DNA of 64,000 nt from Vampirovibrionales bacterium (GTDB lineage Bacteria > Cyanobacteriota > Vampirovibrionia > Vampirovibrionales > JAJTHC01). The translations under genes and the position numbers were made by a program. Position 1 is the first letter of the stretch. Each line of letters starts with the position of its first letter. Below, piece by piece: positions 3,590-48,399 of this stretch. The DNA lies in contig CANGYO010000001.1 in the NCBI GenBank assembly GCA_947458095.1, positions 6,414 to 70,413 of the forward strand, given 5' to 3'. The notes beneath the pieces are model-generated. The model worked only from the letters and a program-made list of their open reading frames with translations. It had not been told where the DNA came from and searched no databases.

Positions 3590-4191
3590 AGGGGGCTTTT
3601 ATTCCTCTTTCTCAAAAAATGTAATGGTTTTACATGTTTTATGCTTTCTCTCTATTTACTATACGCTACACTGCCCGCAATACTTTAAGGCGTACCGTAA
3701 AAATCACTTACATGAAGGAACGTTTTGCGAGAATCATCAAACACACCGTCATTGCCTTGCAACGCATTTCCCCTCATTCCCATCGTGTGTTTTCAACACC
3801 AACCCCACCATCTAATGGAAGCTTTACAAAAAAAGACTTGCCTTTCAATTCGACTGTGCTAACATAACATTGCGGAACGCCTTAAATGCTTTGGTGTGTT
3901 TTAAACACTTATTAGACTAAACATTGATCGCCTTTCGATGCGGCTTAGGCTGCGAACTGTATGCGGAAAAGACGGTGGCTAAACCCCACTTTCGACCTAA
4001 ACCACGGATGCTTTCTTAAGTTCCCTTGTGTTTTGACTGATGACCGAGCATTTCCCCATTGCGGTTACCCCCTTGTGAAATAATACAAGGCACAATTGAA
4101 TCCACGGTAAAGAGCTGTTTGGTCATTCAACGGTAGCGGCGATGCTATACACGGAGCGTTTAAGTTTAGCAAGTACGGAGATTCCACCCTC

Positions 4192-7639: not shown

Positions 7640-7832
7640 GTCTAACGCTCCTTGTGGATGATTGTCTCTTATCTTACCTCAAAGAACGTTTTTGCACAAT
7701 TTTATTGTTTTGGGTGAACGTGGATTGTGGCTTGAAAGGCTTACGACTTTATGCTAGCCTAATGAAAACCTGAACTAAAAGGGTTGCTAATAAGCAACAC
7801 CCCCATTCTGTAACGAAAGGAGGTGAGGCAAA

Positions 7833-7895
7833 ATGGATCATATAGAACATCTTTCGATGTTACTAATTATCCTCCTTCTAGTGTGGAAACGTTAG
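7833..7895 (+). CDS. Candidate 20-aa hydrophobic peptide MDHIEHLSMLLIILLLVWKR (type I toxin-like small ORF)
   Basis: ATG lies 7 nt after AAAGGAGGTGA. The ORF frame and length are conserved across 4 of the 5 copies, and the C-terminal half is a single hydrophobic helix. Confidence 0.5.
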   Translation: MDHIEHLSMLLIILLLVWKR

Positions 7896-7954
7896 GAGGA
7901 TAGCTTTCAAAGGAGTTCTCAAGCCTCGCAAGCTTGGGGACTCCCCCTTTTTAT

Positions 7955-7983
7955 ATTGTGGCAAATGTCGTGAGCTTTGTCAA
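7955..7983 (-). promoter_or_regulatory. Convergent (antisense) sigma70-like promoter TTGACA-N17-CACAAT
   Basis: On the minus strand the sequence reads TTGACAaagctcacgacatttgcCACAAT. The hexamers and 17-nt spacing are conserved in all five copies while the spacer sequence differs. Confidence 0.55.
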
Positions 7984-8028
7984 GGGGGCGGTTCTATTCT
8001 TCCTCCTGATTTGGGGAGGGCAACCGCC

Positions 8029-9531
8029 TTAGCGTTTCACCTTATTGCGGATCGCCGCCCCAATTTGGAAGAGCAAGTACCCTTGAATGAGGTGTTGCAG
8101 GATGTACACGAGGTAAAACCGCTCCCCCATTTTAGTGGCGACGGTTTTAATAGCGTTTTGAATAGGTTCAACTTTATATAATATAAGTGGGAAGCTAGCA
8201 CTCAAACTAGTCCACAATGGATCCCAAAAACAATTGCCTCTATAGTAAAGAAACCCAAAACAGACCACTATGAAAAACCAAAGTAGCGGAAGCATTGCAC
8301 TTAGTCCATACGCTGATGTCCACAAGTAAAAGGTGTTCCAGCTAAACCATTTGTTTTGATAGAACTGATGCCAAAAGTGAAAGTCGTTAGACAATTGAGC
8401 ATCTCCTGCATCTAAGGCACTGACTTTTAAATAGCCGTAGGATTCTATTTTTTCGAGGGTGTCCGTGGTATTAAGTTTTTTAAAAGCTCGAAACTTTAGC
8501 CAAAACGGGAGAAACTTGAAACATTCAAGTGCTTTTTCAGAATCCCATTTGCAGAGGTAAAATCCCATGCCTGCGACGTAACTACCGCCTGTAATGGAAA
8601 CCTGTTGCATGGCAACCTTTGTAAAGACGACGTTTTTGCCGTAAAAGCCACATTCTTTAAAGTGAACCGTCACCTTTGATTCTTTTTTGAGATTACGCAC
8701 TTTAATACAGATACCACTACTATCCACTTCTATATTTTCAAATTGAACGTTGCCTGTACTTTCTTCTAAGCAATTTTCCAAGTCTACAACAAGCGAACGT
8801 TTATCTGACTCAAAACTCGTGTCTTTTATGATAATCTCGCCGTTTAATTCATTTGGTACAATTCCTAAATAATCGTGCGTGGTGGCGTGGTCAAAATTAA
8901 GTTGAGCATTTTCTAAAATTATTTCTTTAAAAGAAGTGTGCTTTTCGAAGGTGGTGTCTGCGAAATACGCTAAGCCTGAAAAGGAGGCCTTGTAAAAATC
9001 CGCCTTTCTTGAGAAGGTGGTGTTTATGAAATACGCTATGTCTGAAAAGGTGGCCCGCCAAAAATACGCATTACGTTTGAAGGCGGTGTTTGTGAAATCC
9101 GCTATGCCTGAAAAGGTGGTACACCTGAAATCCGCCCTTCTTGAGAAGTTGGTGTGTGTGAAATCCACCTCGCTTGTGAAGGTGGTGTTTGTGAAATACG
9201 CTATGCCTGAAAAGGTGGTGTGTGTGAAATACGCATTACGTGTGAAAATTGTTTTGGTTCCGAAATCACAAGCAATAAACTCTTTTTCAAAAGTGGCACT
9301 CTTGCTATTGAAGGTAAAAGGACATTCTAGGGTGTCCCAAATACCATCATCTGTTTCTATGGGCTTTTTTTCAATACCACACGCAAGTAACAATTCAGCC
9401 AAGTTAAAGTCTACTTTGACTTGGCAGTTTTCAAGGTCTAATACGCCTGAATCGAGGGCTTGACGTAACAGCTCTTCAAGGTCTTTTTTTGTGCTAATCA
9501 CACATTCAATTTGGCGTTCTTTGACGTTCAC
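8029..9531 (-). CDS. Pentapeptide-repeat protein with a C-terminal multi-TM domain
   Basis: Long tandem A(D/N)FxxTxF pentapeptide repeats (NAYFTHTTFSGIAYFTNTTFTSEVDFTHTNFSRRADFRCTTFSGIADF...) are followed by hydrophobic helices (MLPLLWFFIVVCFGFLYY...). Confidence 0.75.
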   Translation of the reverse strand: MNVKERQIECVISTKKDLEELLRQALDSGVLDLENCQVKVDFNLAELLLACGIEKKPIETDDGIWDTLECPFTFNSKSATFEKEFIACDFGTKTIFTRNAYFTHTTFSGIAYFTNTTFTSEVDFTHTNFSRRADFRCTTFSGIADFTNTAFKRNAYFWRATFSDIAYFINTTFSRKADFYKASFSGLAYFADTTFEKHTSFKEIILENAQLNFDHATTHDYLGIVPNELNGEIIIKDTSFESDKRSLVVDLENCLEESTGNVQFENIEVDSSGICIKVRNLKKESKVTVHFKECGFYGKNVVFTKVAMQQVSITGGSYVAGMGFYLCKWDSEKALECFKFLPFWLKFRAFKKLNTTDTLEKIESYGYLKVSALDAGDAQLSNDFHFWHQFYQNKWFSWNTFYLWTSAYGLSAMLPLLWFFIVVCFGFLYYRGNCFWDPLWTSLSASFPLILYKVEPIQNAIKTVATKMGERFYLVYILQHLIQGYLLFQIGAAIRNKVKR

Positions 9532-9600
9532 AGGGTCGTCCTTCTTGCGTTGGGGGTGGGTTTCCCCTAGTCTAGCATGAAAACGCTGTCCCTTGGTTCT

Positions 9601-9730
9601 GTCCCCCCTCCTAATTTTAGGAGGGGGTTAGGGGGCGGTTAAACCCTAGACTCCGTTTGTGGTTTAACCTCACCCTCGAACGTCCTTCAGACGTTCTCTT
9701 CCCTCTCCTAAAATTAGGAGAGGGGACAAG
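9601..9730. repeat. Composite palindromic element P1 (three nested hairpins), reverse complement of the 16679 element
   Basis: It contains cccccctcctaattttaggaggggg, ggttaaaccctagactccgtttgtggtttaacc, gaacgtccttcagacgttc and cccctctcctaaaattaggagagggg. Related copies are at 15140 and 16679. Confidence 0.8.
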
Positions 9731-9793
9731 AAAAAGCTGTAAGCCAATAATAAGAAACACCCCCATTCTGTAACAGAAAGGAGGTGAGCTAAA

Positions 9794-9856
9794 ATGGATA
9801 CTCGTGAAGGACTAATCTTCTTGATTATCTACCTATTAGTCTTAAAACTAAGCTAA
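9794..9856 (+). CDS. Candidate 20-aa hydrophobic peptide MDTREGLIFLIIYLLVLKLS
   Basis: It has the same RBS, frame and length as the other copies. The sequence is divergent but hydrophobicity is preserved. Confidence 0.45.
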   Translation: MDTREGLIFLIIYLLVLKLS

Positions 9857-9911
9857 TAGGCTAGCATGGAGTCTTCAAGTCTCGAACACTTGGGGACTCC
9901 CCCTTTTTTGT

Positions 9912-9940
9912 ATTGTGGCAAATCCCGCACACTTTGTCAA
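9912..9940 (-). promoter_or_regulatory. Convergent promoter TTGACA-N17-CACAAT (copy B)
   Basis: The minus strand reads TTGACAaagtgtgcgggatttgcCACAAT. Confidence 0.5.
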
Positions 9941-9954
9941 GGGGTTTGGCTTTA

Positions 9955-10057
9955 CTCCCTCCATTTTAAGGGGAGGGTTGGGGTGGGGAGTAATGTGTCA
10001 CGCTGGGTTTTCAAAATCCCCCCCTCTCCCTAGCCCTCTCCTCAAGGAGAGGGAACA
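9955..10057. repeat. Palindromic element P6 (a second sub-family; related copy at 50585)
   Basis: The sequence is ggctttactccctcc...ggggagggttggggtgggg...cccctctccctagccctctcctcaaggagagggaacaag. It shares its ends and core with 50585-50700. Confidence 0.65.
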
Positions 10058-10142
10058 AGACACAAAATCGCCCCTCTAGTCAAAAAATCGTGTTTTCAGT
10101 AAACTAAAGCTCTAAACCTAATAAAAAAGGACACCCCCACAA

Positions 10143-11744
10143 ATGAACACCCCCACTCGCTACGCCTTTATCTCCGTCTGGGACAAAACCCACATCGTCG
10201 AACTGGCCACCGCCTTGCAAGCCAAGTTCGGCTTTGGCCTCATCGCCACGGGTGGATCTCGTAAAACACTGGAAGAGGCTGGCTTAAACGTCGTGGATCT
10301 CTCCACCGTCACAGGCTTTGACGAAATCCTAGAAGGGCGGGTGAAAAGCCTTCACCCCACCGTGTTTGCGGGCATTCTCGCCAAGCGTGACAAGGCCGAT
10401 CACATGAAAGAGGTCACCTTTAAAATTGATGTCGTCGCCGTGAATTTGTATCCCTTTGAACTCGGTTTGGCTCAATCGCAAACGGCGGAAAGCCCCAACG
10501 CCATGGTGGAACTCATCGATATTGGTGGGTCTTCGCTCATTCGAGCCGCGGCGAAAAACCATGCAGATGTCGCCGTCGTGTCAAGTCCTGATCAATACGA
10601 AGCACTCATTGCCGATTTAACTGTGAACGGTGGGCAAACGTCGCTAGGCTTGCGTAAACGCCTCGCACTCGCTGCGTTTCAGCGGTCTTCGACCTATGAC
10701 AACGCCATTAGTGGCTGGTTGTCGAGCCAAATCCTCGCCGAAGCCTTGGGCGACAAGGCTGAAGCCCTCGAGTTCCCCACGACGATGAACCTGACCTTGC
10801 ACAACATTCAAAGCCTGCGTTATGGCGAAAATCCGCACCAAGCGGCGGCGTTATTTGCCATTCGTCCTGATGAAGTGGATTTTCACGTCTTGCACGGCAA
10901 GCCCTTGTCGTACAACAATATCGTGGATATGGAAGCGGCGTGGAACCTGATTTGCGAATTTGATGATGAGCCCGCGGCGGCGATTATCAAGCATAATCAG
11001 CCCTGTGGCGTGGCGGTTGGGGCGACTTTAGCCAAAGCGTACCAGCGTGCCTTGGATTGTGATCCGTTGTCTGCTTTTGGGGGCGTGGTCGTGCTAAACC
11101 GTGCGGTGGACGAATCTACCGCGAAAGCGATGGTGGATATTTTCACCGAAGTCATTCTCGCGCCGAGCTTTAGCGAAGAGGCTTTGGCGATTTTGCAAGC
11201 CAAGAAAAACCTACGTTTGGTCACTCGCCCATGGGTGACGCCTGAATCGGGCAAGCATCCTGCGGAAACCCGTGATGGTCTGTATTTAAAGCAGGTGAGT
11301 CCGAATTTGGTGTTGGTGCAAGAACAGCAGTTCGCCAAAGCTGAAGCGGTCATGGCCAAAGAGTTGAAGGTGATTTCCAAGAAAAAGCCCACCGAAGACC
11401 AGTTGAGGGATGCCGCCTTTGCGTGGAAAGTGGCGAAGCATTTGAAGTCCAACGCCATTGTCGTAGCCAAAGACGGTCAGGCGTGGGGGCTTTCAGGCGG
11501 TCAAACCAGTCGTGTCGGTGCGGTTGAGCAAGCCTTGGCTCAAGCCTGTGAAAACGCCAACGGAGCCGTTTTAGCGTCCGACGGCTTCTTCCCAGCGGTC
11601 GATAACATCCAGCTTGCGGCTCAAAACCGTGTGGCGTGTATCATTCAGCCCGCGGGTAGCATTAAGGATGCCGACGTGATTTCGGCGGTGAATCAATACG
11701 ATATCGCCATGTTAGCGACCTCCGTTCGAGAATTTCGCCATTAA
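10143..11744 (+). CDS. purH: Bifunctional AICAR transformylase / IMP cyclohydrolase
   Basis: The 533 aa ORF has a PurH-type N-terminus (RYAFISVWDKTHIVELATALQAKFGFGLIATGGSRKTLEEAGLNVVDLSTVTGFDEILEGRVKSLHPTVFAGILAKRD...NLYPFE...DIGGSSLIRAAAKNH). Confidence 0.9.
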   Translation: MNTPTRYAFISVWDKTHIVELATALQAKFGFGLIATGGSRKTLEEAGLNVVDLSTVTGFDEILEGRVKSLHPTVFAGILAKRDKADHMKEVTFKIDVVAVNLYPFELGLAQSQTAESPNAMVELIDIGGSSLIRAAAKNHADVAVVSSPDQYEALIADLTVNGGQTSLGLRKRLALAAFQRSSTYDNAISGWLSSQILAEALGDKAEALEFPTTMNLTLHNIQSLRYGENPHQAAALFAIRPDEVDFHVLHGKPLSYNNIVDMEAAWNLICEFDDEPAAAIIKHNQPCGVAVGATLAKAYQRALDCDPLSAFGGVVVLNRAVDESTAKAMVDIFTEVILAPSFSEEALAILQAKKNLRLVTRPWVTPESGKHPAETRDGLYLKQVSPNLVLVQEQQFAKAEAVMAKELKVISKKKPTEDQLRDAAFAWKVAKHLKSNAIVVAKDGQAWGLSGGQTSRVGAVEQALAQACENANGAVLASDGFFPAVDNIQLAAQNRVACIIQPAGSIKDADVISAVNQYDIAMLATSVREFRH

Positions 11745-11805
11745 CCTTCCCAAAGAGCAAAGCTCGTGTTGTATCTTCACGCTTTGACAATAAAAGGAGC
11801 TAGAA

Positions 11806-12630
11806 ATGTCTTTAAACACCCTGAAAATCGGCATTGTCGGCTTGGGCAATATGTCGGGGGCGATTCTGAAAGGCTTGTTGAAGGCAGGGGTTTTGCCTGA
11901 AAACGTTGTAGGCATTGCGTCTTCACCCGAACGAGCGACCTTGCGTCAAGCCGAATACGACGTAAGCTGTACCACACTTGAGCTTGGCAAAGAGGCCCTT
12001 TCACAGGTGGATCTGCTCCTTTTAGGCGTGAAACCCTTTGTGATGCCCGCTGTTTTAGCCGATTTAGAAGGCATCACGCTGAAGGCGGAGGCTGTGGTGG
12101 TGTCTGTCGCAGCGGGTACGACCTTGGCGACGATAGGTGAGTCCTTGCCGAATACGGCGATTGTGCGAGCCATGCCGAATACGCCAGCCCTTGTGGGACA
12201 AGGGTTTACGGCAATGGCTCCGAATGCGTATGTGGGGGATGCTCAAAAAACGCTGGTGGCATCGGTGTTTGAAGCGGTGGGTAAGGCGGTGTGGCTCGAA
12301 GAGGGGCAGATCAACGCCTTTACAGGGCTTTTTGGTAGCGGCCCTGCGTATGTGTTCTACATCATGGAAGCCTTGGTAGAAGCGGGTTTAGCCGAAGGAT
12401 TGCCCCCTGAATTGGTGGAAGCAGGCGTGCTTCAGCTGGTGAAAGGATCCGCCTTATTGCTGGAAACCCGTGCGACGACCGCATCTCAGCTAAAGGCGGA
12501 GGTCGTCACCCCTAACGGCACCACAGCGAAAGGCTTAGAGGCGTTGGCATCAGCGAAGGTGGATGTCGCCTTACAAGAGGCCGTCCATCAAGCGACACGT
12601 CGAGCAGAAGAGTTGTCGAAAAACGTGTAA
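11806..12630 (+). CDS. proC: Pyrroline-5-carboxylate reductase
   Basis: The 274 aa ORF has GIVGLGNMSGAIL, AMPNTPALVGQG, GSGPAYVFYIMEAL and VTPNGTTAKGL motifs. Confidence 0.85.
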   Translation: MSLNTLKIGIVGLGNMSGAILKGLLKAGVLPENVVGIASSPERATLRQAEYDVSCTTLELGKEALSQVDLLLLGVKPFVMPAVLADLEGITLKAEAVVVSVAAGTTLATIGESLPNTAIVRAMPNTPALVGQGFTAMAPNAYVGDAQKTLVASVFEAVGKAVWLEEGQINAFTGLFGSGPAYVFYIMEALVEAGLAEGLPPELVEAGVLQLVKGSALLLETRATTASQLKAEVVTPNGTTAKGLEALASAKVDVALQEAVHQATRRAEELSKNV

Positions 12631-12644
12631 AAAGGCGTTAATTT

Positions 12645-12756
12645 CCGACACACGAAAGTCGATTCTTGACACACGAAACCCTGTTTTCTGACACACGAAA
12701 CCCGCCTTTCTGACACACGAAACCCGCCTTTCTGACACACGAAACGACGCCTTTTT
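12645..12756. repeat. Tandem array of five 22-bp direct repeats (tgacacacgaaacccgcctttc)
   Basis: The units are ccgacacacgaaagtcgattct, tgacacacgaaaccctgttttc, tgacacacgaaacccgcctttc (x2, identical) and tgacacacgaaacgacgccttttt. The array is flanked by inverted aaaggcg/cgccttt and lies between convergent proC and the RHH-like gene. Confidence 0.85.
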
Positions 12757-12759
12757 CAT

Positions 12760-13191
12760 CTAGTGAGGGCCCTCCTCGCTTCGAAGCTCCCACAACTCCT
12801 TATGGGCTTCTTTCTTAAAGTAGTGCATAAACGCATGTTCAATCATATCACTAAACGATAGATGCAAGACCTTGGCTTCTCGTTCAAGGATTTTCTTGAA
12901 TTGAGGCGACACCCAAAGACCCATCCGCACCCGATCGCTTTTCGGACGCCCCACAATTTTCGGAGGCCTTTCATAGGTCTCTGAACGCTCCATCGCTTGG
13001 TCGGCTTCTTCCATCACCGCAAACCACGCTTCCAATTTGTCCATAAAATGCTCTTCTGATTCAGTGCGGGATCCGCCTGTGGTGGTGAAAAAGTTAAAAA
13101 GTGCATGCGACGTGACGAAGCAACCTCGTCGCATGTCGTAACGGGTGCGTAAGCCGATGCGAGGGTCGTCGTCTCCACGATAGAGTTTCAT
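12760..13191 (-). CDS. Hypothetical protein with a C-terminal ribbon-helix-helix-like DNA-binding motif
   Basis: The 143 aa ORF has a strong RBS (AAAGGAGA-N7-ATG). The C-terminal VRMGLWVSPQFKKILEREAKVLHLSFSDMIEHAF fits a beta-strand/helix/helix RHH pattern. The N-terminal 70 aa are unassigned. Confidence 0.4.
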   Translation of the reverse strand: MKLYRGDDDPRIGLRTRYDMRRGCFVTSHALFNFFTTTGGSRTESEEHFMDKLEAWFAVMEEADQAMERSETYERPPKIVGRPKSDRVRMGLWVSPQFKKILEREAKVLHLSFSDMIEHAFMHYFKKEAHKELWELRSEEGPH

Positions 13192-13235
13192 TTCGGGGTC
13201 TCCTTTGGTTTTTTTTGGGGGGGATGCCTTATGTT

Positions 13236-13260
13236 CCCCCTCCTAATTTTAGGAGAGGGG
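13236..13260. repeat. Single palindromic hairpin P2 (ccccctcctaattttaggagagggg)
   Basis: A perfect 9-bp stem, identical to the arms of the composite P elements. T8 and G7 homopolymer runs lie immediately adjacent. Confidence 0.7.
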
Positions 13261-13357
13261 ACACAGGCTACTATCCTAAGCATGACAACTATTTACGCCA
13301 TTGCATAGTGCGTAAAACCCACTATTTTCCACACGGCAATGTAACAATTTAAAACGC

Positions 13358-13419
13358 CGATCAAACATAGCAAAGATCAAGGGCTTGATCTTCACCTGAT
13401 CTGATCGTACGATCCGATC
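13358..13419. promoter_or_regulatory. Cluster of seven GATC sites, including the 12-bp palindrome GATCGTACGATC, about 65 nt upstream of the methyltransferase gene
   Basis: The sequence is cgccGATCaaacatagcaaaGATCaagggcttGATCttcacctGATCtGATCgtacGATCcGATCgcc, giving 7 GATC sites in 62 bp. Confidence 0.6.
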
Positions 13420-13483
13420 GCCTTATCAGAGGCGTTTTTTCGACACAGAAAGAATGTCCCTATAAAGCACGGAGTCCCCCACA

Positions 13484-14392
13484 ATGAAAAGCCCCGAAAC
13501 CCTCATGTTATTACACCAAGACGACACACTAAGCTTGCACTTAGGCGATGTGCTAGAAACCCTAGCCAGCTTGCCCCAAGAAAGTGTCGATCTTATTTTT
13601 GCCGACCCCCCCTACAACTTGAGCAACGACGGCTTTACCTGCCACGCAGGCAAACGAGTCAGCGTCAACAAAGGGGTGTGGGACAAAAGCAACGGCGTGC
13701 AAGCCGATTTCGATTTTCACCGTGCGTGGATTTCCGCCTGTTACCGAGTGCTAAAACCCAACGGTAGCCTATGGATTAGTGGCACCTACCATTCCATTTA
13801 CGCTTGCGGATTCGCCCTACAACTCGACGGCTGGCATGTGATTAACGATGTCGCATGGTTCAAGCCCAACGCCGCCCCGAACTTGAGTTGCCGTATGTTT
13901 ACCGCCAGCCATGAAACGCTGATTTGGGCGAGAAAAAGCAAAACCGCCAAGCACACGTTTAACTATGACTTGATGAAAAACGGCATGTGGCATGAAGACG
14001 ATTTCATTAAAAAGCCTGAAAAACAAATGCGAAGCGTGTGGGCAAGTGGCACGCCCAAACCCCACGAAAAAGCCTTTGGTAAGCACCCCACCCAAAAGCC
14101 CGAACTGCTGTTAAGACGCATTGTAATTGCCAGTAGCTTACAAGGTGACGTGGTGCTAGACCCCTTTTGTGGGAGCGGTACAACAGGCGTAGTCGCCTTA
14201 CAACACGGACGCAACTTCATTGGCATTGACCAAAACCGTGAGTATTTGGAAGGGATTGCCATTCGCCGTTTAAAACACATTCAAGAACAAGTGCAAGCGT
14301 GTATAATAAAGGAACAGTTAGAGTCCTTGTATGCACTGGATGCCTATATAGATGAGTCTTCAATTCAACTTAGCTTATGCGGAATCTTATAA
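13484..14392 (+). CDS. Beta-class N6-adenine/N4-cytosine DNA methyltransferase of the CcrM/M.HinfI/DpnA family
   Basis: Motif IV DPPY (VDLIFADPPYNL) precedes motif I (LDPFCGSGTTG). Conserved blocks AHETLIWARKSKTAKHTFNYD and HPTQKPELLLRRI match the CcrM/HinfI methylase family. Confidence 0.85.
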   Translation: MKSPETLMLLHQDDTLSLHLGDVLETLASLPQESVDLIFADPPYNLSNDGFTCHAGKRVSVNKGVWDKSNGVQADFDFHRAWISACYRVLKPNGSLWISGTYHSIYACGFALQLDGWHVINDVAWFKPNAAPNLSCRMFTASHETLIWARKSKTAKHTFNYDLMKNGMWHEDDFIKKPEKQMRSVWASGTPKPHEKAFGKHPTQKPELLLRRIVIASSLQGDVVLDPFCGSGTTGVVALQHGRNFIGIDQNREYLEGIAIRRLKHIQEQVQACIIKEQLESLYALDAYIDESSIQLSLCGIL

Positions 14393-15134
14393 TAGTGAAA
14401 CGCAACGTGTTAGACGTATGTCTGAAAAATGGCTGGTGGAAGAATCATATTGCCCTGCGTGTGGGGGACGTTTGGCGGAATATCCCAATAATAAACCTGT
14501 GCGAGATACGTATTGTGAAGATTGTGGTGAAAAATACGAGCTAAAATCTAAAAAAAGTAGTGAAAAAGGACTTTTAAAGCTTCCTGAAAAAATTGTGGAT
14601 GGGGCGTATGCCACGATGATGCAAGATATGGAAGCCCAAACGACTCCCAATTTATTATTTTTACAATACTTAAGTGGCTATACGGTGGCGTCTTTACTGG
14701 TGATTCCTAAGCAGTTTTTCGTGCCTGCTTTAATTGAAAAGCGTAACCCTTTATCCAAGACGGCACGACGTGCAGGCTGGGTGGGTTGTAATATCCTACT
14801 AGAACCCATTCCACAAGTGGGACGGATTCCCATTATTCAAAACAAAGTATTTGAACCGAAGGATAAGGTTATTTCTATTTTTCAGAAAACCTTATTTTTA
14901 CGACATCAACAAAAACTTGAAGCTAAAGGCTGGTTGCTGGATGTGATGCGGTGTGTGGAACTCATCGGCAAAGAAGAGTTTACGTTGCAAGATATTTATC
15001 AACATGAAGCGATGCTGAAAGACTTACATCCCGACAATAATAATGTGCAAGCGAAGATACGGCAACAATTGCAAGTCTTGCGAGACGCAGGCTTCTTGGC
15101 GTTTGTGGGTCGTGGGGTGTATCGGGTGGTGTAA
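14352..15134 (+). CDS. DpnI-like methyl-directed (G6mATC-type) restriction endonuclease; overlaps the methyltransferase by 41 nt
   Basis: The 260 aa ORF resembles DpnI along its length as recalled from memory: MSLQFNL...SYCPACGG...YCEDCGEKYELKSKK...DGAYATMMQ...ARRAGWVGCNI...EFTLQDIY...KIRQQLQVLRDAGFLAFVGRGVYRVV. DpnI has an N-terminal PD-(D/E)XK nuclease and a C-terminal winged helix. Confidence 0.8.
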   Translation: MSLQFNLAYAESYNSETQRVRRMSEKWLVEESYCPACGGRLAEYPNNKPVRDTYCEDCGEKYELKSKKSSEKGLLKLPEKIVDGAYATMMQDMEAQTTPNLLFLQYLSGYTVASLLVIPKQFFVPALIEKRNPLSKTARRAGWVGCNILLEPIPQVGRIPIIQNKVFEPKDKVISIFQKTLFLRHQQKLEAKGWLLDVMRCVELIGKEEFTLQDIYQHEAMLKDLHPDNNNVQAKIRQQLQVLRDAGFLAFVGRGVYRVV

Positions 15135-15139
15135 ATGCC

Positions 15140-15267
15140 GTCCCCTCTCCTAATTTTAGGAGAGGGAAGAGAACGTCTGAAAGACGTTCGAGGGGGAGCT
15201 TAGACTCACCACGGGCATCTAGGGTTTAACCGCCCCCTAACACCCTCCTAAAATCAGGAGGGGGGAC
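15140..15267. repeat. Composite palindromic element P3
   Basis: It contains gtcccctctcctaattttaggagaggg, gaacgtctgaaagacgttc, ...tagggtttaacc... and ccctcctaaaatcaggagggg. It has the same architecture as the elements at 9601 and 16679. Confidence 0.75.
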
Positions 15268-15286
15268 AAAGCCAATTGGGTTTCGT

Positions 15287-15360
15287 CATTGCGAGCGTAG
15301 CGTGGCAATCTGTCAAGACGTCGCAGGTGGGGGAACAGATTGCTTCGTTGCACTCGCAAT
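15287..15360. repeat. Long nested inverted repeat (cattgcgag...gcaatctgt-N22-acagattgc...ctcgcaat)
   Basis: Two nested perfect inverted repeats of 9 bp each enclose a G-rich loop. It is a possible structured RNA or protein-binding site. Confidence 0.5.
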
Positions 15361-15422
15361 AACGGTGTTTTTTATCACTTTGCGTAGAGTCTCCTCAAGG
15401 AGAGGGAACAGAGCCGAAGCAC

Positions 15423-15451
15423 TTGACAAAGCGTGCAACATTTGACACAAT
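15423..15451 (+). promoter_or_regulatory. Convergent promoter TTGACA-N17-CACAAT (copy C, plus strand because the module is inverted)
   Basis: The plus strand reads TTGACAaagcgtgcaacatttgaCACAAT. Confidence 0.5.
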
Positions 15452-15507
15452 ATAAAAAGGGAGAGTCCCCAAGTCGGTAAACTTGAGAACTCTTTTTCGC
15501 TATCCTC

Positions 15508-15570
15508 CTAGAGTTTTGTCACTAGAAGGAGGATAATTAACAGCGACATAAGTTTCTGAAGTTCATCCAT
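15508..15570 (-). CDS. Candidate 20-aa hydrophobic peptide MDELQKLMSLLIILLLVTKL
   Basis: It has the same RBS spacing, length and C-terminal LLIILLLVTKL as copies A and E. Confidence 0.5.
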   Translation of the reverse strand: MDELQKLMSLLIILLLVTKL

Positions 15571-15711
15571 TTTAGCTCACCTCCTTTCTGTTACAGAACG
15601 GGGGTGTTGCTTATTAGCAACCCTTTAAAGGTTTTTATTAGACTAGCACAAAGCCTTAGCAGGTTCAAGCCAGATACGGCAACAATGGCAAGTCTTGCTT
15701 GAATCCGCCTG

Positions 15712-16668
15712 ATGCTTTTTTGTGAAAGGATGCCCTCTTTGATTCCACGCACCGACATCCAAAAACAGCTCAACGACGTGGGCATTACGCAGTGGGGCGT
15801 TCTCACCACCGATGCCCTCAAAAACGAAGCCCAACGCCTGACGGCGTGGCTGGAGGCTGGGCATCACGCCGACATGGACTGGATGCCTCGTCACGCCGAA
15901 AAACGGGTGTCTCCGTCTGATTTGTGGGAAGGCGTGCAAAGTGTCGTGGTGGTGGCCGTCAACTACTTCCCTGGTTGGGAAGCAGGGCAAGGCGACGATC
16001 TGAAAATCGCTCGCTACGCCCTAGGCAAGGACTATCACAAGGTGATTCGTCGTAAGCTTGGCAAGGTTTTAAAGGCGTTACAGGCGGAACATGAGGGCTT
16101 AGAGGGTCGTCCCTTTGTGGATTCGGCGCCTTTGCTTGAAAAGGCGTTAGCCGTTCAAGCAGGCTTGGGCTGGCAAGGCAAGCATAGTCTTTTAATCACG
16201 AAAGAAGCAGGGTCATGGGTGATGCTTGGGGCGTTGTTCCTCAATCAAGCCGTTGATGCCTATACCAGTCCCCACGAAAACACGCTGGAATCGGGGCATT
16301 GTGGGACCTGTACGCGGTGCATCACGGCTTGCCCCACGGAGGCGATCGTCTCGCCCACGGTCGTCGACAGCCGTCGGTGCATCGCCTATTGGACGATTGA
16401 AAATGGAGATGATGCTTTGCCTGATTTTATCCAAGACAACCAGCAGGATTGGGGCTTTGGATGCGACATTTGCCAAGATGTCTGCCCATGGAACCTGAAG
16501 TTTTCTAACGTGACTGAGGAGCCTGCCTTTGCCCCTCGGGCGGTGTTGGCACATCCGAATCGGGCGTATTTTCAGAGTTTGAGTGAAGCCGCTTTTGCTC
16601 AAGCCTTTGAAAATAGTCCCTTGCGTCGCACGGGCTTGAGGCGGATCCAGCGGAATATCATGCTTTAG
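15712..16668 (+). CDS. queG: Epoxyqueuosine reductase
   Basis: The 318 aa ORF has a QueG-type layout with a C-terminal 4Fe-4S ferredoxin motif (CGTCTRCITACPT) and a second Cys cluster (CDICQDVCPWN). The start may be the downstream ATG at 15730. Confidence 0.75.
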   Translation: MLFCERMPSLIPRTDIQKQLNDVGITQWGVLTTDALKNEAQRLTAWLEAGHHADMDWMPRHAEKRVSPSDLWEGVQSVVVVAVNYFPGWEAGQGDDLKIARYALGKDYHKVIRRKLGKVLKALQAEHEGLEGRPFVDSAPLLEKALAVQAGLGWQGKHSLLITKEAGSWVMLGALFLNQAVDAYTSPHENTLESGHCGTCTRCITACPTEAIVSPTVVDSRRCIAYWTIENGDDALPDFIQDNQQDWGFGCDICQDVCPWNLKFSNVTEEPAFAPRAVLAHPNRAYFQSLSEAAFAQAFENSPLRRTGLRRIQRNIML

Positions 16669-16678
16669 AGAATCGCCT

Positions 16679-16808
16679 TGTCCCCTCTCCTAATTTTAGG
16701 AGAGGGAAGAGAACGTCGTTAGACGTTCGAGGGTGAGGTTAAACCTTAGACTCCGTTTGTGGGTTTAACCGCCCCCTAGCCCCCTCCTAAAATTAGGAGG
16801 GGGGACAA
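16679..16808. repeat. Composite palindromic element P5
   Basis: It contains gtcccctctcctaattttaggagaggg, gaacgtcgttagacgttc, ggttaaaccttagactccgtttgtgggtttaacc and ccctcctaaaattaggagggggg. It is the reverse complement of P1. Confidence 0.8.
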
Positions 16809-16880
16809 AACAAAAGCTACATTTGGATATTTCCCATAAAAGCTAAACACCCCCAATCTAATAGAAAGGAGGTGAGCTAA

Positions 16881-16955
16881 ATGGATAATAGTCAACAAGT
16901 GTTGATTTTAATGATTATCCTCCTTCTAGCGACAAAAACTAGGAGGATAGCATAA
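16881..16955 (+). CDS. Candidate 24-aa peptide MDNSQQVLILMIILLLATKTRRIA (a 1-nt indel extends the C-terminus)
   Basis: It uses the same RBS and frame as the other copies. A single-base difference relative to copy E removes the usual TAG and extends the ORF by 4 codons. Confidence 0.4.
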   Translation: MDNSQQVLILMIILLLATKTRRIA

Positions 16956-16998
16956 AGGAGTTCTCAAGCTTTTACGCTTGGGGACTCCCCCTTTTTAT

Positions 16999-17027
16999 AT
17001 TGTGGCAAATGTAGAAGCCTTTGTCAA
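16999..17027 (-). promoter_or_regulatory. Convergent promoter TTGACA-N17-CACAAT (copy D)
   Basis: The minus strand reads TTGACAaaggcttctacatttgcCACAAT. Confidence 0.5.
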
Positions 17028-17170
17028 GAGGGCGGCTGGTTTATAGTACCCCTGTTTGTAGACCTTGTTTATACTTGAAAGCCTTGCGATTTTATGCTAG
17101 CTTATAAAAAACCTTAAAAGGGTTGCTAATAAGCAACACCCCCAATCTAACAGAAAGGAGGTGAAGCAAA

Positions 17171-17233
17171 ATGGATCATATAGAACATCTTTCGATGTTA
17201 CTAATTATCCTCCTTCTAGTGACGAAACTCTAG
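17171..17233 (+). CDS. Candidate 20-aa hydrophobic peptide MDHIEHLSMLLIILLLVTKL
   Basis: ATG lies 7 nt after AAAGGAGGTGA. The 3' end of the ORF sits inside the anti-SD-containing hairpin. Confidence 0.5.
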   Translation: MDHIEHLSMLLIILLLVTKL

Positions 17234-17289
17234 GAGGATAGCTGAACGGAGTTCTCAAGCTTTTACGCTTGGGGACTCCCCCTTTTTAT

Positions 17290-17318
17290 ATTGTGGCAAA
17301 TGTAGAAGCTTTTGTCAA
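17290..17318 (-). promoter_or_regulatory. Convergent promoter TTGACA-N17-CACAAT (copy E)
   Basis: The minus strand reads TTGACAaaagcttctacatttgcCACAAT. Confidence 0.5.
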
Positions 17319-17433
17319 GATCTCGCCATCAATTACACATCATGCAAAAACTGTATTTTTAAGCTCACACGTTAAAAATCCGTTGAAACGTTTCTATAAT
17401 AGTAGGCATCACTAAAATGAGGAAGCCCCTGCT

Positions 17434-47919: not shown

Positions 47920-48399
47920 ATGGCGTCTCTATTGCTGGTGGTGTTAGGAGCCTCTGTACTGACAGGTGTCACGAACGTTACAGGCGTTTTGGGTATTTTA
48001 TGCGTCGAGTTTTTTGAGATGGAAGACGGCAACTTGCTGGTGAACGAACTTGCCCCACGTCCGCATAATTCGGGGCATTTCACGATCGAAGCCTGCCATG
48101 TGAGCCAGTATCAGCAACAAGTGAACGCCTTAACAGGCATGCCCTTGGGCAATGCAGAAATGCACGTTAAAGCCGTGGGATTGATGAACTTGTTGAGCAA
48201 TCGTTGGAGTAAGAAGGGGGATTCCCCAAATTGGCAGGAGTTGTTGTCTCGTTACCCTCGTTTGAGTGTGCATTTGTATGGCAAGAAGGAGTTGCGTCCT
48301 AACCGTAAAATGGGGCATATTACGTTGACGAAAAAGGATACGGCTATGGTGGAATCGGCGTTTGACGAAATTAACGCCATGCTCACCACTTACGATTAA
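47920..48399 (+). pseudogene. purK: 5'-truncated remnant of N5-carboxyaminoimidazole ribonucleotide synthase (only the C-terminal ~150 aa)
   Basis: GILCVEFFEMEDGNLLVNELAPRPHNSGHFTIEACHVSQYQQQVNALTGMPLG...KMGHITL matches the PurK ATP-grasp C-terminal half. The N-terminal ~200 aa are absent. It starts 27 nt after the valS stop. Confidence 0.55.

What the first reader, a model, noticed from the sequence alone, without database searches (positions are those of the whole stretch)
7730..17320. Five-copy family of structured modules, each encoding a 20-aa hydrophobic peptide with a perfect SD and a convergent promoter (type I toxin/antisense-RNA-like system)
Five modules (7730-7984, 9755-9950, 15420-15661 inverted, 16846-17033, 17074-17320) share the same layout. 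A 6-8 bp hairpin (gggttgct-aata-agcaaccc) is followed by AAAGGAGGTGA and then, 7 nt on, ATGGAT, opening an ORF of exactly 20 codons in 4 of 5 copies. The peptides are MDHIEHLSMLLIILLLVWKR, MDTREGLIFLIIYLLVLKLS, MDELQKLMSLLIILLLVTKL and MDHIEHLSMLLIILLLVTKL; the fifth is 24 aa because of a 1-nt indel. A hairpin overlaps the ORF 3' end and a GGGG-ACT-CCCC+T5 terminator follows. The C-terminal halves form a single transmembrane-like helix, like Ibs, Ldr, Hok and TisB-type type I toxins. On the opposite strand, just downstream, every copy carries TTGACA-N17-CACAAT pointing back across the ORF and SD. In the long copies the antisense transcript would end at the agcaac/gttgct hairpin + TTTT. The ORF frame and length are preserved despite a hypervariable N-terminal half, and all five copies keep the hairpin and the convergent promoter. 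Together this argues for selection on a translated toxin-like peptide controlled by a cis-antisense RNA, not for an inert repeat. Nothing like it is annotated by the ORF track, since the ORFs are below 60 aa.
Basis: partly seen in the sequence, partly recalled or inferred. Interest (0 to 1): 0.92.

Follow-up and report, generated by a model that had tools for sequence, protein, structure and literature searches.

The report
Small toxin-like peptide/antisense RNA cassettes
Five copies of a compact 250-bp cassette in a Vampirovibrionales (Melainabacteria) genome each encode a 20-residue membrane-type peptide faced by a conserved opposing promoter, which makes them the best candidate yet for an RNA-controlled (type I) toxin-antitoxin family in this lineage, although toxicity is untested.

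Summary
The window has exactly five modules. Another 22 copies or fragments occur in Vampirovibrionales MAG contigs and two metagenome contigs. Nothing matches in Rfam, Pfam, NCBIfam, phage, plasmid or viral collections, and the peptides were never called as genes.

All 24 full copies first collected keep GAAAGGAGGTGA, an ATG 5-6 nt on, and a 19-24 codon ORF. The peptides share one plan: a polar/acidic N-terminus, exactly 12 uncharged residues, then an invariant Lys. Indels between ATG and Lys are multiples of 3. Within-subfamily changes are enriched for synonymous ones (p=0.0013).

All 24 keep TTGACA-N17(TGn)-CACAAT on the opposite strand, with only the spacer varying. I also found a sense promoter (TTGAAN-N17-TGnTAnnnT) in 18/24. 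The sense terminator is a 13-bp stem that covaries, not the short GGGG/CCCC hairpin. The 5' hairpin fits better as the antisense terminator. The hairpin over the stop codon shows compensatory changes.

Variation concentrates in loops and the N-terminal codons, as in the specificity domains of E. coli Ibs/Sib.

Best reading: a new type I toxin-antitoxin-like family that works like Ibs/Sib but is not homologous to it. Transcription, translation and toxicity were not tested.

The parts
7732..7983 (+). Module m1, complete (from the sense -35 to the antisense -35)
   Evidence: positional orthologue in L003 at 95% identity
7732..7760 (+). m1 sense promoter: TTGAAA, 17-nt spacer ending in TGC, then TAGCCT (extended -10)
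   Evidence: same pattern in 18/24 copies, with TA...T and TG kept while other positions vary
7777..7802 (-). m1 hairpin H1 with A-run. Read on the - strand it is the antisense terminator (stem + UUUU)
   Evidence: one search lists 7798-7783 (-) as terminator-like; 94.8% of cells paired on the antisense strand vs 87.4% on the sense strand
7815..7826 (+). m1 Shine-Dalgarno block GAAAGGAGGTGA. The upstream CACCCCC at 7798-7804 can pair with it
   Evidence: invariant in 24/24 copies; SD-sequestering helix in every MFE fold
7833..7895 (+). m1 ORF, 20 aa: MDHIEHLSMLLIILLLVWKR
7874..7899 (+). m1 hairpin H3, spanning the last codons and the stop codon
   Evidence: 4 of 8 pairs covary across subfamilies
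7912..7952 (+). m1 sense terminator: 13-bp stem, then CCCTTTTT
7955..7983 (-). m1 antisense promoter TTGACA-N17(TGC)-CACAAT
9743..9940 (+). Module m2. It lacks the sense promoter and H1 and abuts a MITE-like element at 9600-9728
9794..9856 (+). m2 ORF, 20 aa: MDTREGLIFLIIYLLVLKLS (subfamily B)
9868..9909 (+). m2 sense terminator
9912..9940 (-). m2 antisense promoter
15423..15668 (-). Module m3, complete, inverted relative to the others
15640..15668 (-). m3 sense promoter TTGAAC-N17(TGC)-TAGTCT
15602..15626 (+). m3 H1 hairpin, which is the antisense terminator when read on the + strand of the window
15508..15570 (-). m3 ORF, 20 aa: MDELQKLMSLLIILLLVTKL
15454..15493 (-). m3 sense terminator (AGAGT/ACTCT covarying variant)
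15423..15451 (+). m3 antisense promoter
16809..17027 (+). Module m4. It lacks the sense promoter and H1, abuts the MITE-like element at 16678-16808, and has no counterpart in the relative L003
16881..16955 (+). m4 ORF, 24 aa: MDNSQQVLILMIILLLATKTRRIA. A 1-nt deletion after the Lys codon extends the tail
16957..16996 (+). m4 sense terminator
16999..17027 (-). m4 antisense promoter
17075..17318 (+). Module m5, complete, in tandem with m4. Predicted sense RNA about 17110-17287; predicted antisense RNA about 17283-17116
   Evidence: orthologue in L003
17075..17103 (+). m5 sense promoter TTGAAA-N17(TGC)-TAGCTT
17116..17141 (-). m5 H1 hairpin / antisense terminator
17171..17233 (+). m5 ORF, 20 aa: MDHIEHLSMLLIILLLVTKL
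17212..17237 (+). m5 hairpin H3 over the ORF end and stop codon
17248..17287 (+). m5 sense terminator
17290..17318 (-). m5 antisense promoter

Best explanation
Each module is a self-contained cassette of about 250 bp bounded by two convergent promoters. It works like a type I toxin-antitoxin locus of the Ibs/Sib kind.

**Sense transcript (inferred).** A moderate sense promoter (TTGAAN-N17-TGnTAnnnT) would make an mRNA of about 180 nt. This mRNA carries a very strong SD and encodes a 19-24 aa peptide built as: polar/acidic N-terminus, 12 uncharged residues, Lys, short tail. In the predicted fold:
- the SD pairs with an upstream CACCCCC;
- the 5' AAAAGGG pairs with the 3' CCCUUUU;
- the start region sits in a junction closed by the SD-AUG spacer pairing with sequence after hairpin H3.

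**Antisense transcript (inferred).** A near-consensus promoter (TTGACA-N17 with TGn-CACAAT) lies just past the sense terminator. It would fire back across the whole ORF and SD and stop at the 5' hairpin plus U-run. The result is an antisense RNA of about 170 nt, fully complementary to the mRNA.

**Proposed mechanism (inferred).** First contact is through the complementary loops of the hypervariable hairpins: the N-terminal codons, the H3 loop and the H4 loop. That would make each antisense RNA specific for its own mRNA. Duplex formation then blocks the SD/AUG and probably exposes the mRNA to RNase III. When the antisense RNA falls, the membrane-active peptide is made.

**Shown versus inferred.** Shown here: conservation of every signal, the reading frame, the peptide plan and the RNA helices. 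Inferred: transcription of both strands, translation, toxicity and neutralisation.
For: **Copies and ORF**
- 24 full copies come from the window and Vampirovibrionales contigs. All 24 have GGAGGTGA-N5-6-ATG and a 19-24 codon ORF. Three further copies are a 24-aa variant, an 18-aa variant and one decayed copy.
- The only indel between ATG and the Lys codon is 3 nt.
- Every typical peptide has exactly 12 uncharged residues before an invariant Lys.
- pN/pS in the ORF frame is 0.15-0.20 in subfamilies B and C, against 0.46 and 2.6-4.1 in the shifted frames.
- Within-subfamily changes by codon position are 20/10/26. Of 47 codon changes, 21 are synonymous against 23.7% expected (p=0.0013).

**Promoters and terminators**
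- The antisense promoter is exact in 24/24 copies. Only the spacer and the n of TGn vary.
- In the window, the five antisense promoters are the five best promoter-like hits in 11 kb, and the five best terminator-like hits are the sense terminators.
- The sense promoter is present in 18/24.

**RNA structure**
- Helix covariation: 0 of 500 shuffles reach the observed score, and 95% of cells are paired against 40-60% when the partners are slid.
- Strand asymmetry: the sense terminator is 98.7% paired on the sense strand and 83.7% on the antisense strand. H1 is 94.8% paired on the antisense strand and 87.4% on the sense strand.
- Fold z-scores are -7.8 for the sense RNA and -5.0 for the antisense RNA. 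The same architecture appears in all subfamilies.
- Variability concentrates in loops and N-terminal codons. In Ibs/Sib, the specificity domains likewise sit in the variable regions (PMC2943612).

**Genomic behaviour typical of type I loci**
- Tandem arrays, gain and loss between genomes that are 84-95% identical, remnants and one decayed ORF.
Against: - There are no expression data of any kind. Promoters and terminators are consensus predictions made with E. coli-type rules.
- Toxicity is assumed from resemblance only.
- The coding signal is significant but modest. It is weak in subfamily A (pN/pS 0.57) and is confounded by RNA-structure constraints on the same bases.
- A 12-residue hydrophobic run is short for a membrane-spanning helix.
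- m2 and m4 lack the sense promoter, so some copies may be silent.
- m1 and m5 share an identical N-terminal region, so not every co-resident pair is insulated.
- There is no sequence similarity to any known toxin or antitoxin family.
Confidence: 0.6

Rival explanations
1. The antisense-controlled architecture is the same, but the peptide is a harmless small membrane protein, for example a modulator of a transporter or membrane complex. On this reading the antisense RNA simply tunes its level, and the module is not a toxin-antitoxin pair.
For: Everything that supports translation and antisense control fits this reading equally well. One peptide gave a weak, sub-threshold match to the small regulatory membrane peptide MgtR (E=0.033, 14 bits against a cut-off of 35).
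Against: Several features are typical of type I toxins rather than accessory membrane peptides: many divergent copies per genome, tandem arrays, rapid gain and loss, remnants, no conserved partner gene next to the modules, full-length antisense cover and SD sequestration. The MgtR hit is far below its cut-off and reflects hydrophobic composition.
Confidence: 0.2
2. The functional products are RNAs only: a pair of structured sRNAs, or one sRNA acting in trans. The antisense RNA contains UCACCUCCUUUC, which is like the anti-SD tail of 16S rRNA. On this reading the small ORF is not translated.
For: RNA structure is strong and covaries. The N-terminal codons form a hairpin of different sequence in each subfamily. 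On the antisense strand the CACCUCC/GGGGGUG helix pairs in 166 of 168 cells.
Against: The following are hard to explain without translation:
- an invariant 12-nt SD with ATG 5-6 nt downstream in 24/24 copies;
- a frame-preserving indel;
- a fixed pattern of 12 uncharged residues plus Lys across peptides that differ widely at the nucleotide level;
- an excess of synonymous and third-position changes.
Confidence: 0.1
3. The peptides are released, membrane-lytic effectors or signals, like leaderless bacteriocins or phenol-soluble modulins. A predatory Vampirovibrionales cell would use them against prey or competitors, with the antisense RNA acting as a safety catch.
For: The peptides are short and amphipathic-to-hydrophobic, with diversified N-termini, and there are several paralogues per genome. 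My own background knowledge, not tested here: the one cultured member of the lineage is a predator of Chlorella.
Against: No export, immunity or processing genes are linked to the modules. Their neighbours are unrelated housekeeping genes. Full antisense cover is not a known feature of bacteriocin or modulin loci.
Confidence: 0.05
4. The modules are an inert dispersed repeat (REP or MITE-like) whose ORF and promoter-like motifs are accidental.
For: The modules are intergenic, multi-copy and variable in copy number. They often lie next to a genuine MITE-like element with 28-29 nt terminal inverted repeats.
Against: The modules have no terminal inverted repeats of their own. Conservation is concentrated exactly on promoter hexamers, the SD, ATG, stems and the Lys codon, while spacers and loops vary. 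Helices show compensatory changes and the ORF is under purifying selection.
Confidence: 0.03

Closest known systems
Ibs/Sib type I toxin-antitoxin loci of E. coli (the former QUAD repeats)
   Same: - Very short hydrophobic toxins. IbsA is given as 19 aa in the abstract of bioRxiv 10.1101/2025.05.26.656083 (listed).
- Several paralogous copies per chromosome, five in E. coli (PMC2943612).
- A cis-encoded antisense RNA whose target sites lie in the ORF and the translation-initiation region.
- Cognate specificity carried by the most variable regions, one of them a loop that targets a stem-loop inside the ORF (PMC2943612).

Here, likewise, variation is concentrated in a hairpin within the N-terminal codons and in loops.
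   Different: - No sequence relationship. There is no Pfam or NCBIfam hit for the peptides even at E up to 10, and no Rfam hit, so the Rfam Sib model did not match either.
- A different phylum-level lineage (Melainabacteria rather than Proteobacteria).
- Here each transcript ends at a terminator placed directly in front of the opposing promoter, and 5'-3' closing and SD-sequestering helices are predicted.
- Nothing has been tested experimentally.
Type I loci whose toxin mRNA is kept inactive by its own fold (DinQ/AgrB; SD sequestration in BsrG/SR4)
   Same: The predicted mRNA fold hides the SD in a helix with an upstream anti-SD and closes the 5' and 3' ends. In the dinQ system the full-length transcript is inert to translation until 5' processing (abstract of PMC5066626). 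In BsrG/SR4 the RBS is sequestered in a hairpin (PMC12390103, introduction). Some copies (L005, L002_3686) have a TATAAT placed so that transcription would start after the 5' arm, giving a naturally truncated mRNA.
   Different: There is no Pfam match to any toxin family, which would include HOK_GEF if that model is in the library. There is no leader ORF, and the antisense RNA covers the whole mRNA rather than a short region. Processing is pure speculation here.
MsoT1/MsoA1 of Microcystis aeruginosa, reported as the first type I candidate in Cyanobacteria (PMC12390103)
   Same: It is a candidate type I system from the wider cyanobacterial lineage, with a cis-encoded antisense RNA.
   Different: MsoT1 is 63 aa with two predicted helices and pI 11. 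Its antitoxin is 56-83 nt and overlaps only the 3' end and 3' UTR. Here the peptides are 19-24 aa with one hydrophobic run, the antisense RNA is full-length and the family is multi-copy. There is no sequence similarity.

Membership tests
Type I toxin-antitoxin system (functional class) | Small (<60 aa) toxin ORF, usually a hydrophobic helical peptide, with its own translation signals | tested here: met
   19-24 aa ORF with an invariant SD and ATG in 24/24 copies. Twelve uncharged residues are followed by Lys. GRAVY is 0.8-2.5.
Type I toxin-antitoxin system (functional class) | Antisense RNA gene with its own promoter, complementary to the toxin mRNA | tested here: met
   At sequence level only. 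TTGACA-N17(TGn)-CACAAT is exact in 24/24 copies and faces the ORF. A terminator-like hairpin plus U-run lies beyond the SD in the copies that keep the 5' hairpin. No transcript data exist.
Type I toxin-antitoxin system (functional class) | Overexpression of the peptide arrests growth or kills the cell | not testable with these tools
   Needs inducible expression in a host.
Type I toxin-antitoxin system (functional class) | The antisense RNA prevents toxin synthesis and rescues the cell | not testable with these tools
   Needs co-expression or deletion experiments.
Ibs/Sib family | Peptide matches the Ibs toxin profile | tested here: not met
   Six peptides scanned against Pfam-A and NCBIfam at E up to 10 gave no toxin family.
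Ibs/Sib family | Antisense RNA matches the Rfam Sib model | tested here: not met
   No Rfam hit at gathering threshold in the whole window. Only chance-level hits appeared at E up to 10 in 16700-17400.
Ibs/Sib family | Multi-copy loci with an overlapping antisense RNA and variable recognition regions | tested here: met
   Five copies in the window, with tandems in relatives. Variation is concentrated in N-terminal codons and loops. This shows resemblance in how it works, not homology.
Hok/Sok family | Hok/Gef-type toxin domain plus an overlapping leader ORF | tested here: not met
   No Pfam hit of any kind. There is no second conserved ORF in the module.
MITE / REP-type inert repeat | Terminal inverted repeats bounding the unit, with no selection on internal coding or regulatory signals | tested here: not met
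   The repeat finder shows terminal inverted repeats only for a separate, neighbouring element of about 130 bp. The module itself shows signal-specific conservation, covariation and purifying selection.

The most novel reading that the evidence does not exclude
This would be a lineage-restricted type I toxin-antitoxin family in Vampirovibrionales, the first for Melainabacteria. Its toxins would be among the shortest known. The antitoxin's specificity determinant would be a hypervariable hairpin that is also the toxin's N-terminal coding region, so selection for RNA-RNA discrimination between paralogous cassettes would drive the peptide's N-terminal hypervariability. The cassette would be insulated by two reciprocal terminators, each placed directly in front of the opposing promoter.
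Probability: 0.4. Interest if true: 0.65.

Novelty: new member of a known kind. Interest (0 to 1): 0.55.

Why it matters
A 2025 paper (PMC12390103) states that type I toxin-antitoxin systems had been identified only in Proteobacteria, Firmicutes and Tenericutes. It reported one first candidate in Cyanobacteria and attributed the apparently narrow range to homology-based searches. A clean, multi-copy, comparatively well-supported family in the non-photosynthetic sister lineage of cyanobacteria would:
- widen that range;
- show that such loci can be found from anatomy alone;
- give a compact natural example of convergent, mutually terminated transcription units in which RNA and protein constraints act on the same 60 bases.

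The peptides were never called as genes in a collection of 15 billion proteins, so this is genuinely unannotated content. It remains a prediction, because the organisms are known only as MAGs.

Tried and rejected
- **Known RNA families.** Rfam found nothing at gathering threshold in the whole window and only chance-level hits at E up to 10.
- **Known protein families.** Pfam and NCBIfam gave nothing for six peptides except a sub-threshold MgtR hit, which I put down to hydrophobic composition.
- **Sixth copy.** The candidate at 48211 is coding sequence.
I rejected GGGG-ACT-CCCC in favour of the 13-bp stem because of the AGAGT/ACTCT covariation.
- **My first H3 register.** TATCCTCCT/AGGAGGATA does not hold in subfamilies B and C. 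The RNAalifold register does.
- **Stop-free run lengths.** These did not discriminate between the six frames at this ORF size.
- **Metagenome scan.** A 5' pattern gave only two loci.
- **Mobile-element carriage.** Viral, plasmid and phage searches gave nothing.
- **Existing gene calls.** Exact look-up of nine peptides found none. A first attempt failed on a 19-aa entry.
- **Leader-peptide/attenuator reading.** Rejected, because neighbouring genes have no consistent identity or orientation.
- **Antisense-strand ORF.** No conserved start with an SD was seen in the alignment.
- **Occurrence in Gammaproteobacteria.** That contig is 90-93% identical to a Vampirovibrionales contig, so it is probably mis-binned.

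Full report
**1. The observation**

Reading the five stated places and aligning them confirms a shared module. A profile search finds exactly five copies in the 64-kb window. A weak sixth hit at 48211 lies inside coding sequence and is not a copy. The shared 19-mer TTGGGGACTCCCCCTTTTT is expected 0.01 times by chance.

Corrections:
- The 5' hairpin has a bulged A and exists only in m1, m3 and m5.
- The SD-ATG gap is 5-6 nt.
- The terminator is a 13-bp stem, not GGGG-ACT-CCCC.

**2. Where the window comes from, and relatives**

A pattern scan of one genome per species returned 14 contigs. Thirteen are from Vampirovibrionales MAGs and one is from a 'Gammaproteobacteria' bin. That last contig is 90-93% identical to a Vampirovibrionales contig over 2.1 kb, so it is probably mis-binned.

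The window is syntenic with contig JBILSS010000001.1 (L003) at 84-95% nucleotide identity. It therefore comes from a Vampirovibrionales genome (Candidatus Melainabacteria).

The profile finds 19 more full copies and one partial in these contigs. A metagenome scan added two more. Nothing matches in viral contigs, plasmids or phages. The window neighbours are ordinary chromosomal genes (holA-like, MlaD, purH, proC, queG) plus a restriction-modification pair.

**3. Anatomy across 24 copies**

In order along the sense strand:
1. Sense promoter TTG[AG]AN, 17-nt spacer ending in TGn, then TAnnnT. It is present in 18/24, and the TA...T and TG positions are held while the others vary.
2. An A-run and hairpin H1.
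3. An invariant CACCCCC.
4. An invariant GAAAGGAGGTGA.
5. ATG after 5-6 nt.
6. A hypervariable stretch covering codons 2-11.
7. The near-invariant ATTATC.
8. Hairpin H3, whose loop and 3' arm carry the last codons and the stop codon.
9. A variable linker.
10. A 13-bp hairpin H4, then CCCTTTTT.
11. On the other strand, TTGACA, 14 variable nt, TGn, then CACAAT. This is exact in 24/24.

In tandem arrays the antisense -35 lies 4 nt from the next sense -35. The unit is therefore bounded by its two promoters.

In the window, the tool's five best promoter-like hits in 11 kb are the five antisense promoters, and its five best terminator-like hits are the five H4 stems.

**4. Is the ORF under selection as a protein?**

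- All 24 copies keep an ORF of 19 (x5), 20 (x16), 22 (x2) or 24 (x1) codons.
- L015 has a 24-aa version and L009 a divergent 18-aa version. L016 is a decayed copy with an internal deletion.
- Between ATG and the Lys codon the only indel is 3 nt. Frameshifts occur only after the Lys and change the short tail.
- Every typical peptide has exactly 12 uncharged residues between a polar/acidic head and the invariant Lys, although the residues themselves differ.
- Codon-position entropy is 0.98/0.58/0.98.
- pN/pS in frame is 0.15 (subfamily C), 0.20 (B) and 0.57 (A). The shifted frames give 0.46-0.84 and 1.3-4.1.
- Within subfamilies, variable states by codon position are 20/10/26 (p=0.03). Of 47 codon changes, 21 are synonymous against 23.7% expected (p=0.0013).

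The signal is real but moderate, and it shares its bases with RNA-structure constraints.

**5. RNA structure and strand**

RNAalifold recovers H3, H4 and an SD-sequestering helix. For H1+H3+H4:
- 95.2% of cells pair, against 40-60% when the partners are slid;
- 8 pairs change on both sides;
- no shuffle out of 500 reaches the covariation score.

Examples of covariation:
- H3: CCTTCTAG/CTAGGAGG becomes CCTATTAG/CTAATAGG, CTTGTTAG/CTAACAAG or TCTTATTAG/CTAAGAAGA. The 5'-arm changes are synonymous Leu codons or Leu/Tyr/Phe replacements.
- H4: GGAGT/ACTCC becomes AGAGT/ACTCT in 7 copies, and CAAGC/GCTTG becomes CAAGT/ACTTG.
- L015 adds TAAGG/CCTTA.

G-U against C-A asymmetry assigns strands:

| Helix | Paired on sense strand | Paired on antisense strand |
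|---|---|---|
| H4 (sense terminator) | 98.7% | 83.7% |
| H1 (antisense terminator) | 87.4% | 94.8% |
| CACCYCC/GGRGGUG | 85% | 99% |

Single-sequence folds give z=-7.8 for the sense RNA and -5.0 for the antisense RNA.

The same sense architecture recurs in all subfamilies:
- a 5'-3' closing helix AAAAGGG/CCCUUUU;
- H1;
- the SD helix;
- a helix pairing the SD-AUG spacer with sequence after H3;
- a hairpin within the N-terminal codons whose sequence differs between subfamilies (mean z -1.6);
- H3 and H4.

**6. Mechanism**

The evidence fits a cis-antisense-controlled small hydrophobic peptide gene, most likely a type I toxin-antitoxin module. Each transcript would end at a terminator directly in front of the opposing promoter, and the two RNAs would overlap over about 170 nt.

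Variation is concentrated in the N-terminal codons (majority fraction 0.64), the H3 loop (0.68) and the H4 loop (0.54). Stems and signals score 0.83-1.0. In E. coli Ibs/Sib, the two target-recognition domains lie in the most variable regions and set cognate specificity. One of them is a loop that targets a stem-loop inside the ORF (PMC2943612). By analogy, the hypervariable hairpin here is the likely first-contact and discrimination site.

In the window, only m1 and m5 share that region (33/33 nt). All other pairs share at most 6 contiguous nt there.

**7. Dynamics**

- m1 and m5 have positional orthologues in L003. m2, m3 and m4 do not, and L003 has an extra tandem copy.
- Solo promoter remnants and 5' fragments sit beside copies in L002, L006, L012 and L015.
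- m2 and m4 lack the sense promoter and H1, and they abut a separate MITE-like element with 28-29 nt inverted ends.
- In L005 and L002_3686 an insertion replaces the 5' arm of H1 and brings a TATAAT.

**8. Comparison and novelty**

There is no hit to any Rfam, Pfam or NCBIfam family. None of nine peptides is present in a 15-billion-protein collection. No paper in the searched library links toxin-antitoxin systems with Melainabacteria or Vampirovibrionales.

A 2025 paper states that type I systems were known only from Proteobacteria, Firmicutes and Tenericutes, and it reports a first, unrelated, 63-aa cyanobacterial candidate.

The family here works like Ibs/Sib but fails the membership tests for it. 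I file it as a new member of a known kind.

**9. Limits**

Transcription, translation, toxicity and rescue are all untested. Promoter calls rest on E. coli-type consensus rules. The organisms are known only as MAGs.

Noticed in passing
window 9600-9728, 15140-15275, 16678-16808; solo end at 13229-13263: A separate MITE-like element of about 130 bp with 28-29 nt terminal inverted repeats (TTGTCCCCTCTCCTAATTTTAGGAGAGGG), each end being itself a hairpin. Two copies sit exactly where modules m2 and m4 have lost their sense promoter and 5' hairpin. Similar CCCTCTCC...GGAGAGGG hairpins flank modules in other loci.
   Followed up: partly
window 12667-12745: A tandem array of a 22-nt unit (TGACACACGAAACCCGCCTTTC, about 4 copies) in the intergenic region after the proC-like gene. 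Function unknown.
   Followed up: no
window 13484-15134: A restriction-modification pair (N6/N4 DNA methylase plus a DpnI-like endonuclease). In the syntenic relative L003, only about 850 bp stand in place of window 13208-15710. The R-M pair and module m3 therefore appear to be absent there.
   Followed up: partly
L009 4302-4435 (- strand): A variant copy with the usual sense promoter, 5' hairpin and SD. Its ORF is 18 aa (MIMSETILLLFSLFLCIL) and its 3' half is unrelated, lacking H3, H4 and the antisense promoter. A different hairpin follows.
   Followed up: partly
L016 2049-2218: A decayed copy. An internal deletion removes most of the ORF (MEQ*), while the promoter, SD and H3 are kept.
   Followed up: partly
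L014 (JBEISK010000032.1, labelled Gammaproteobacteria MAG): This contig is 90-93% identical to Vampirovibrionales contig L007 over about 2.1 kb, so it is probably mis-binned. The module family is thus seen only in Vampirovibrionales.
   Followed up: partly
L005 688-800 and L002 3964-4123: An insertion of about 100 bp splits the 5' hairpin from the rest of the module and brings a perfect TATAAT at the position of the hairpin loop. It could drive a 5'-shortened mRNA. In L002 the displaced promoter fragment is still detectable upstream (4066-4123).
   Followed up: partly
window 8948-9246: Internal 33/66-nt tandem repeats lie inside the pentapeptide-repeat protein gene (8029-9531, - strand). These are ordinary coding repeats.
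   Followed up: no
window 7813-7826 and equivalents: The SD context (A)GAAAGGAGGTGA is 12-13 nt long and invariant, far longer than a usual SD. Its complement in the antisense RNA (UCACCUCCUUUC) resembles the 3' tail of 16S rRNA. I could not check it against this organism's own 16S because no rRNA gene is in the window.
   Followed up: no
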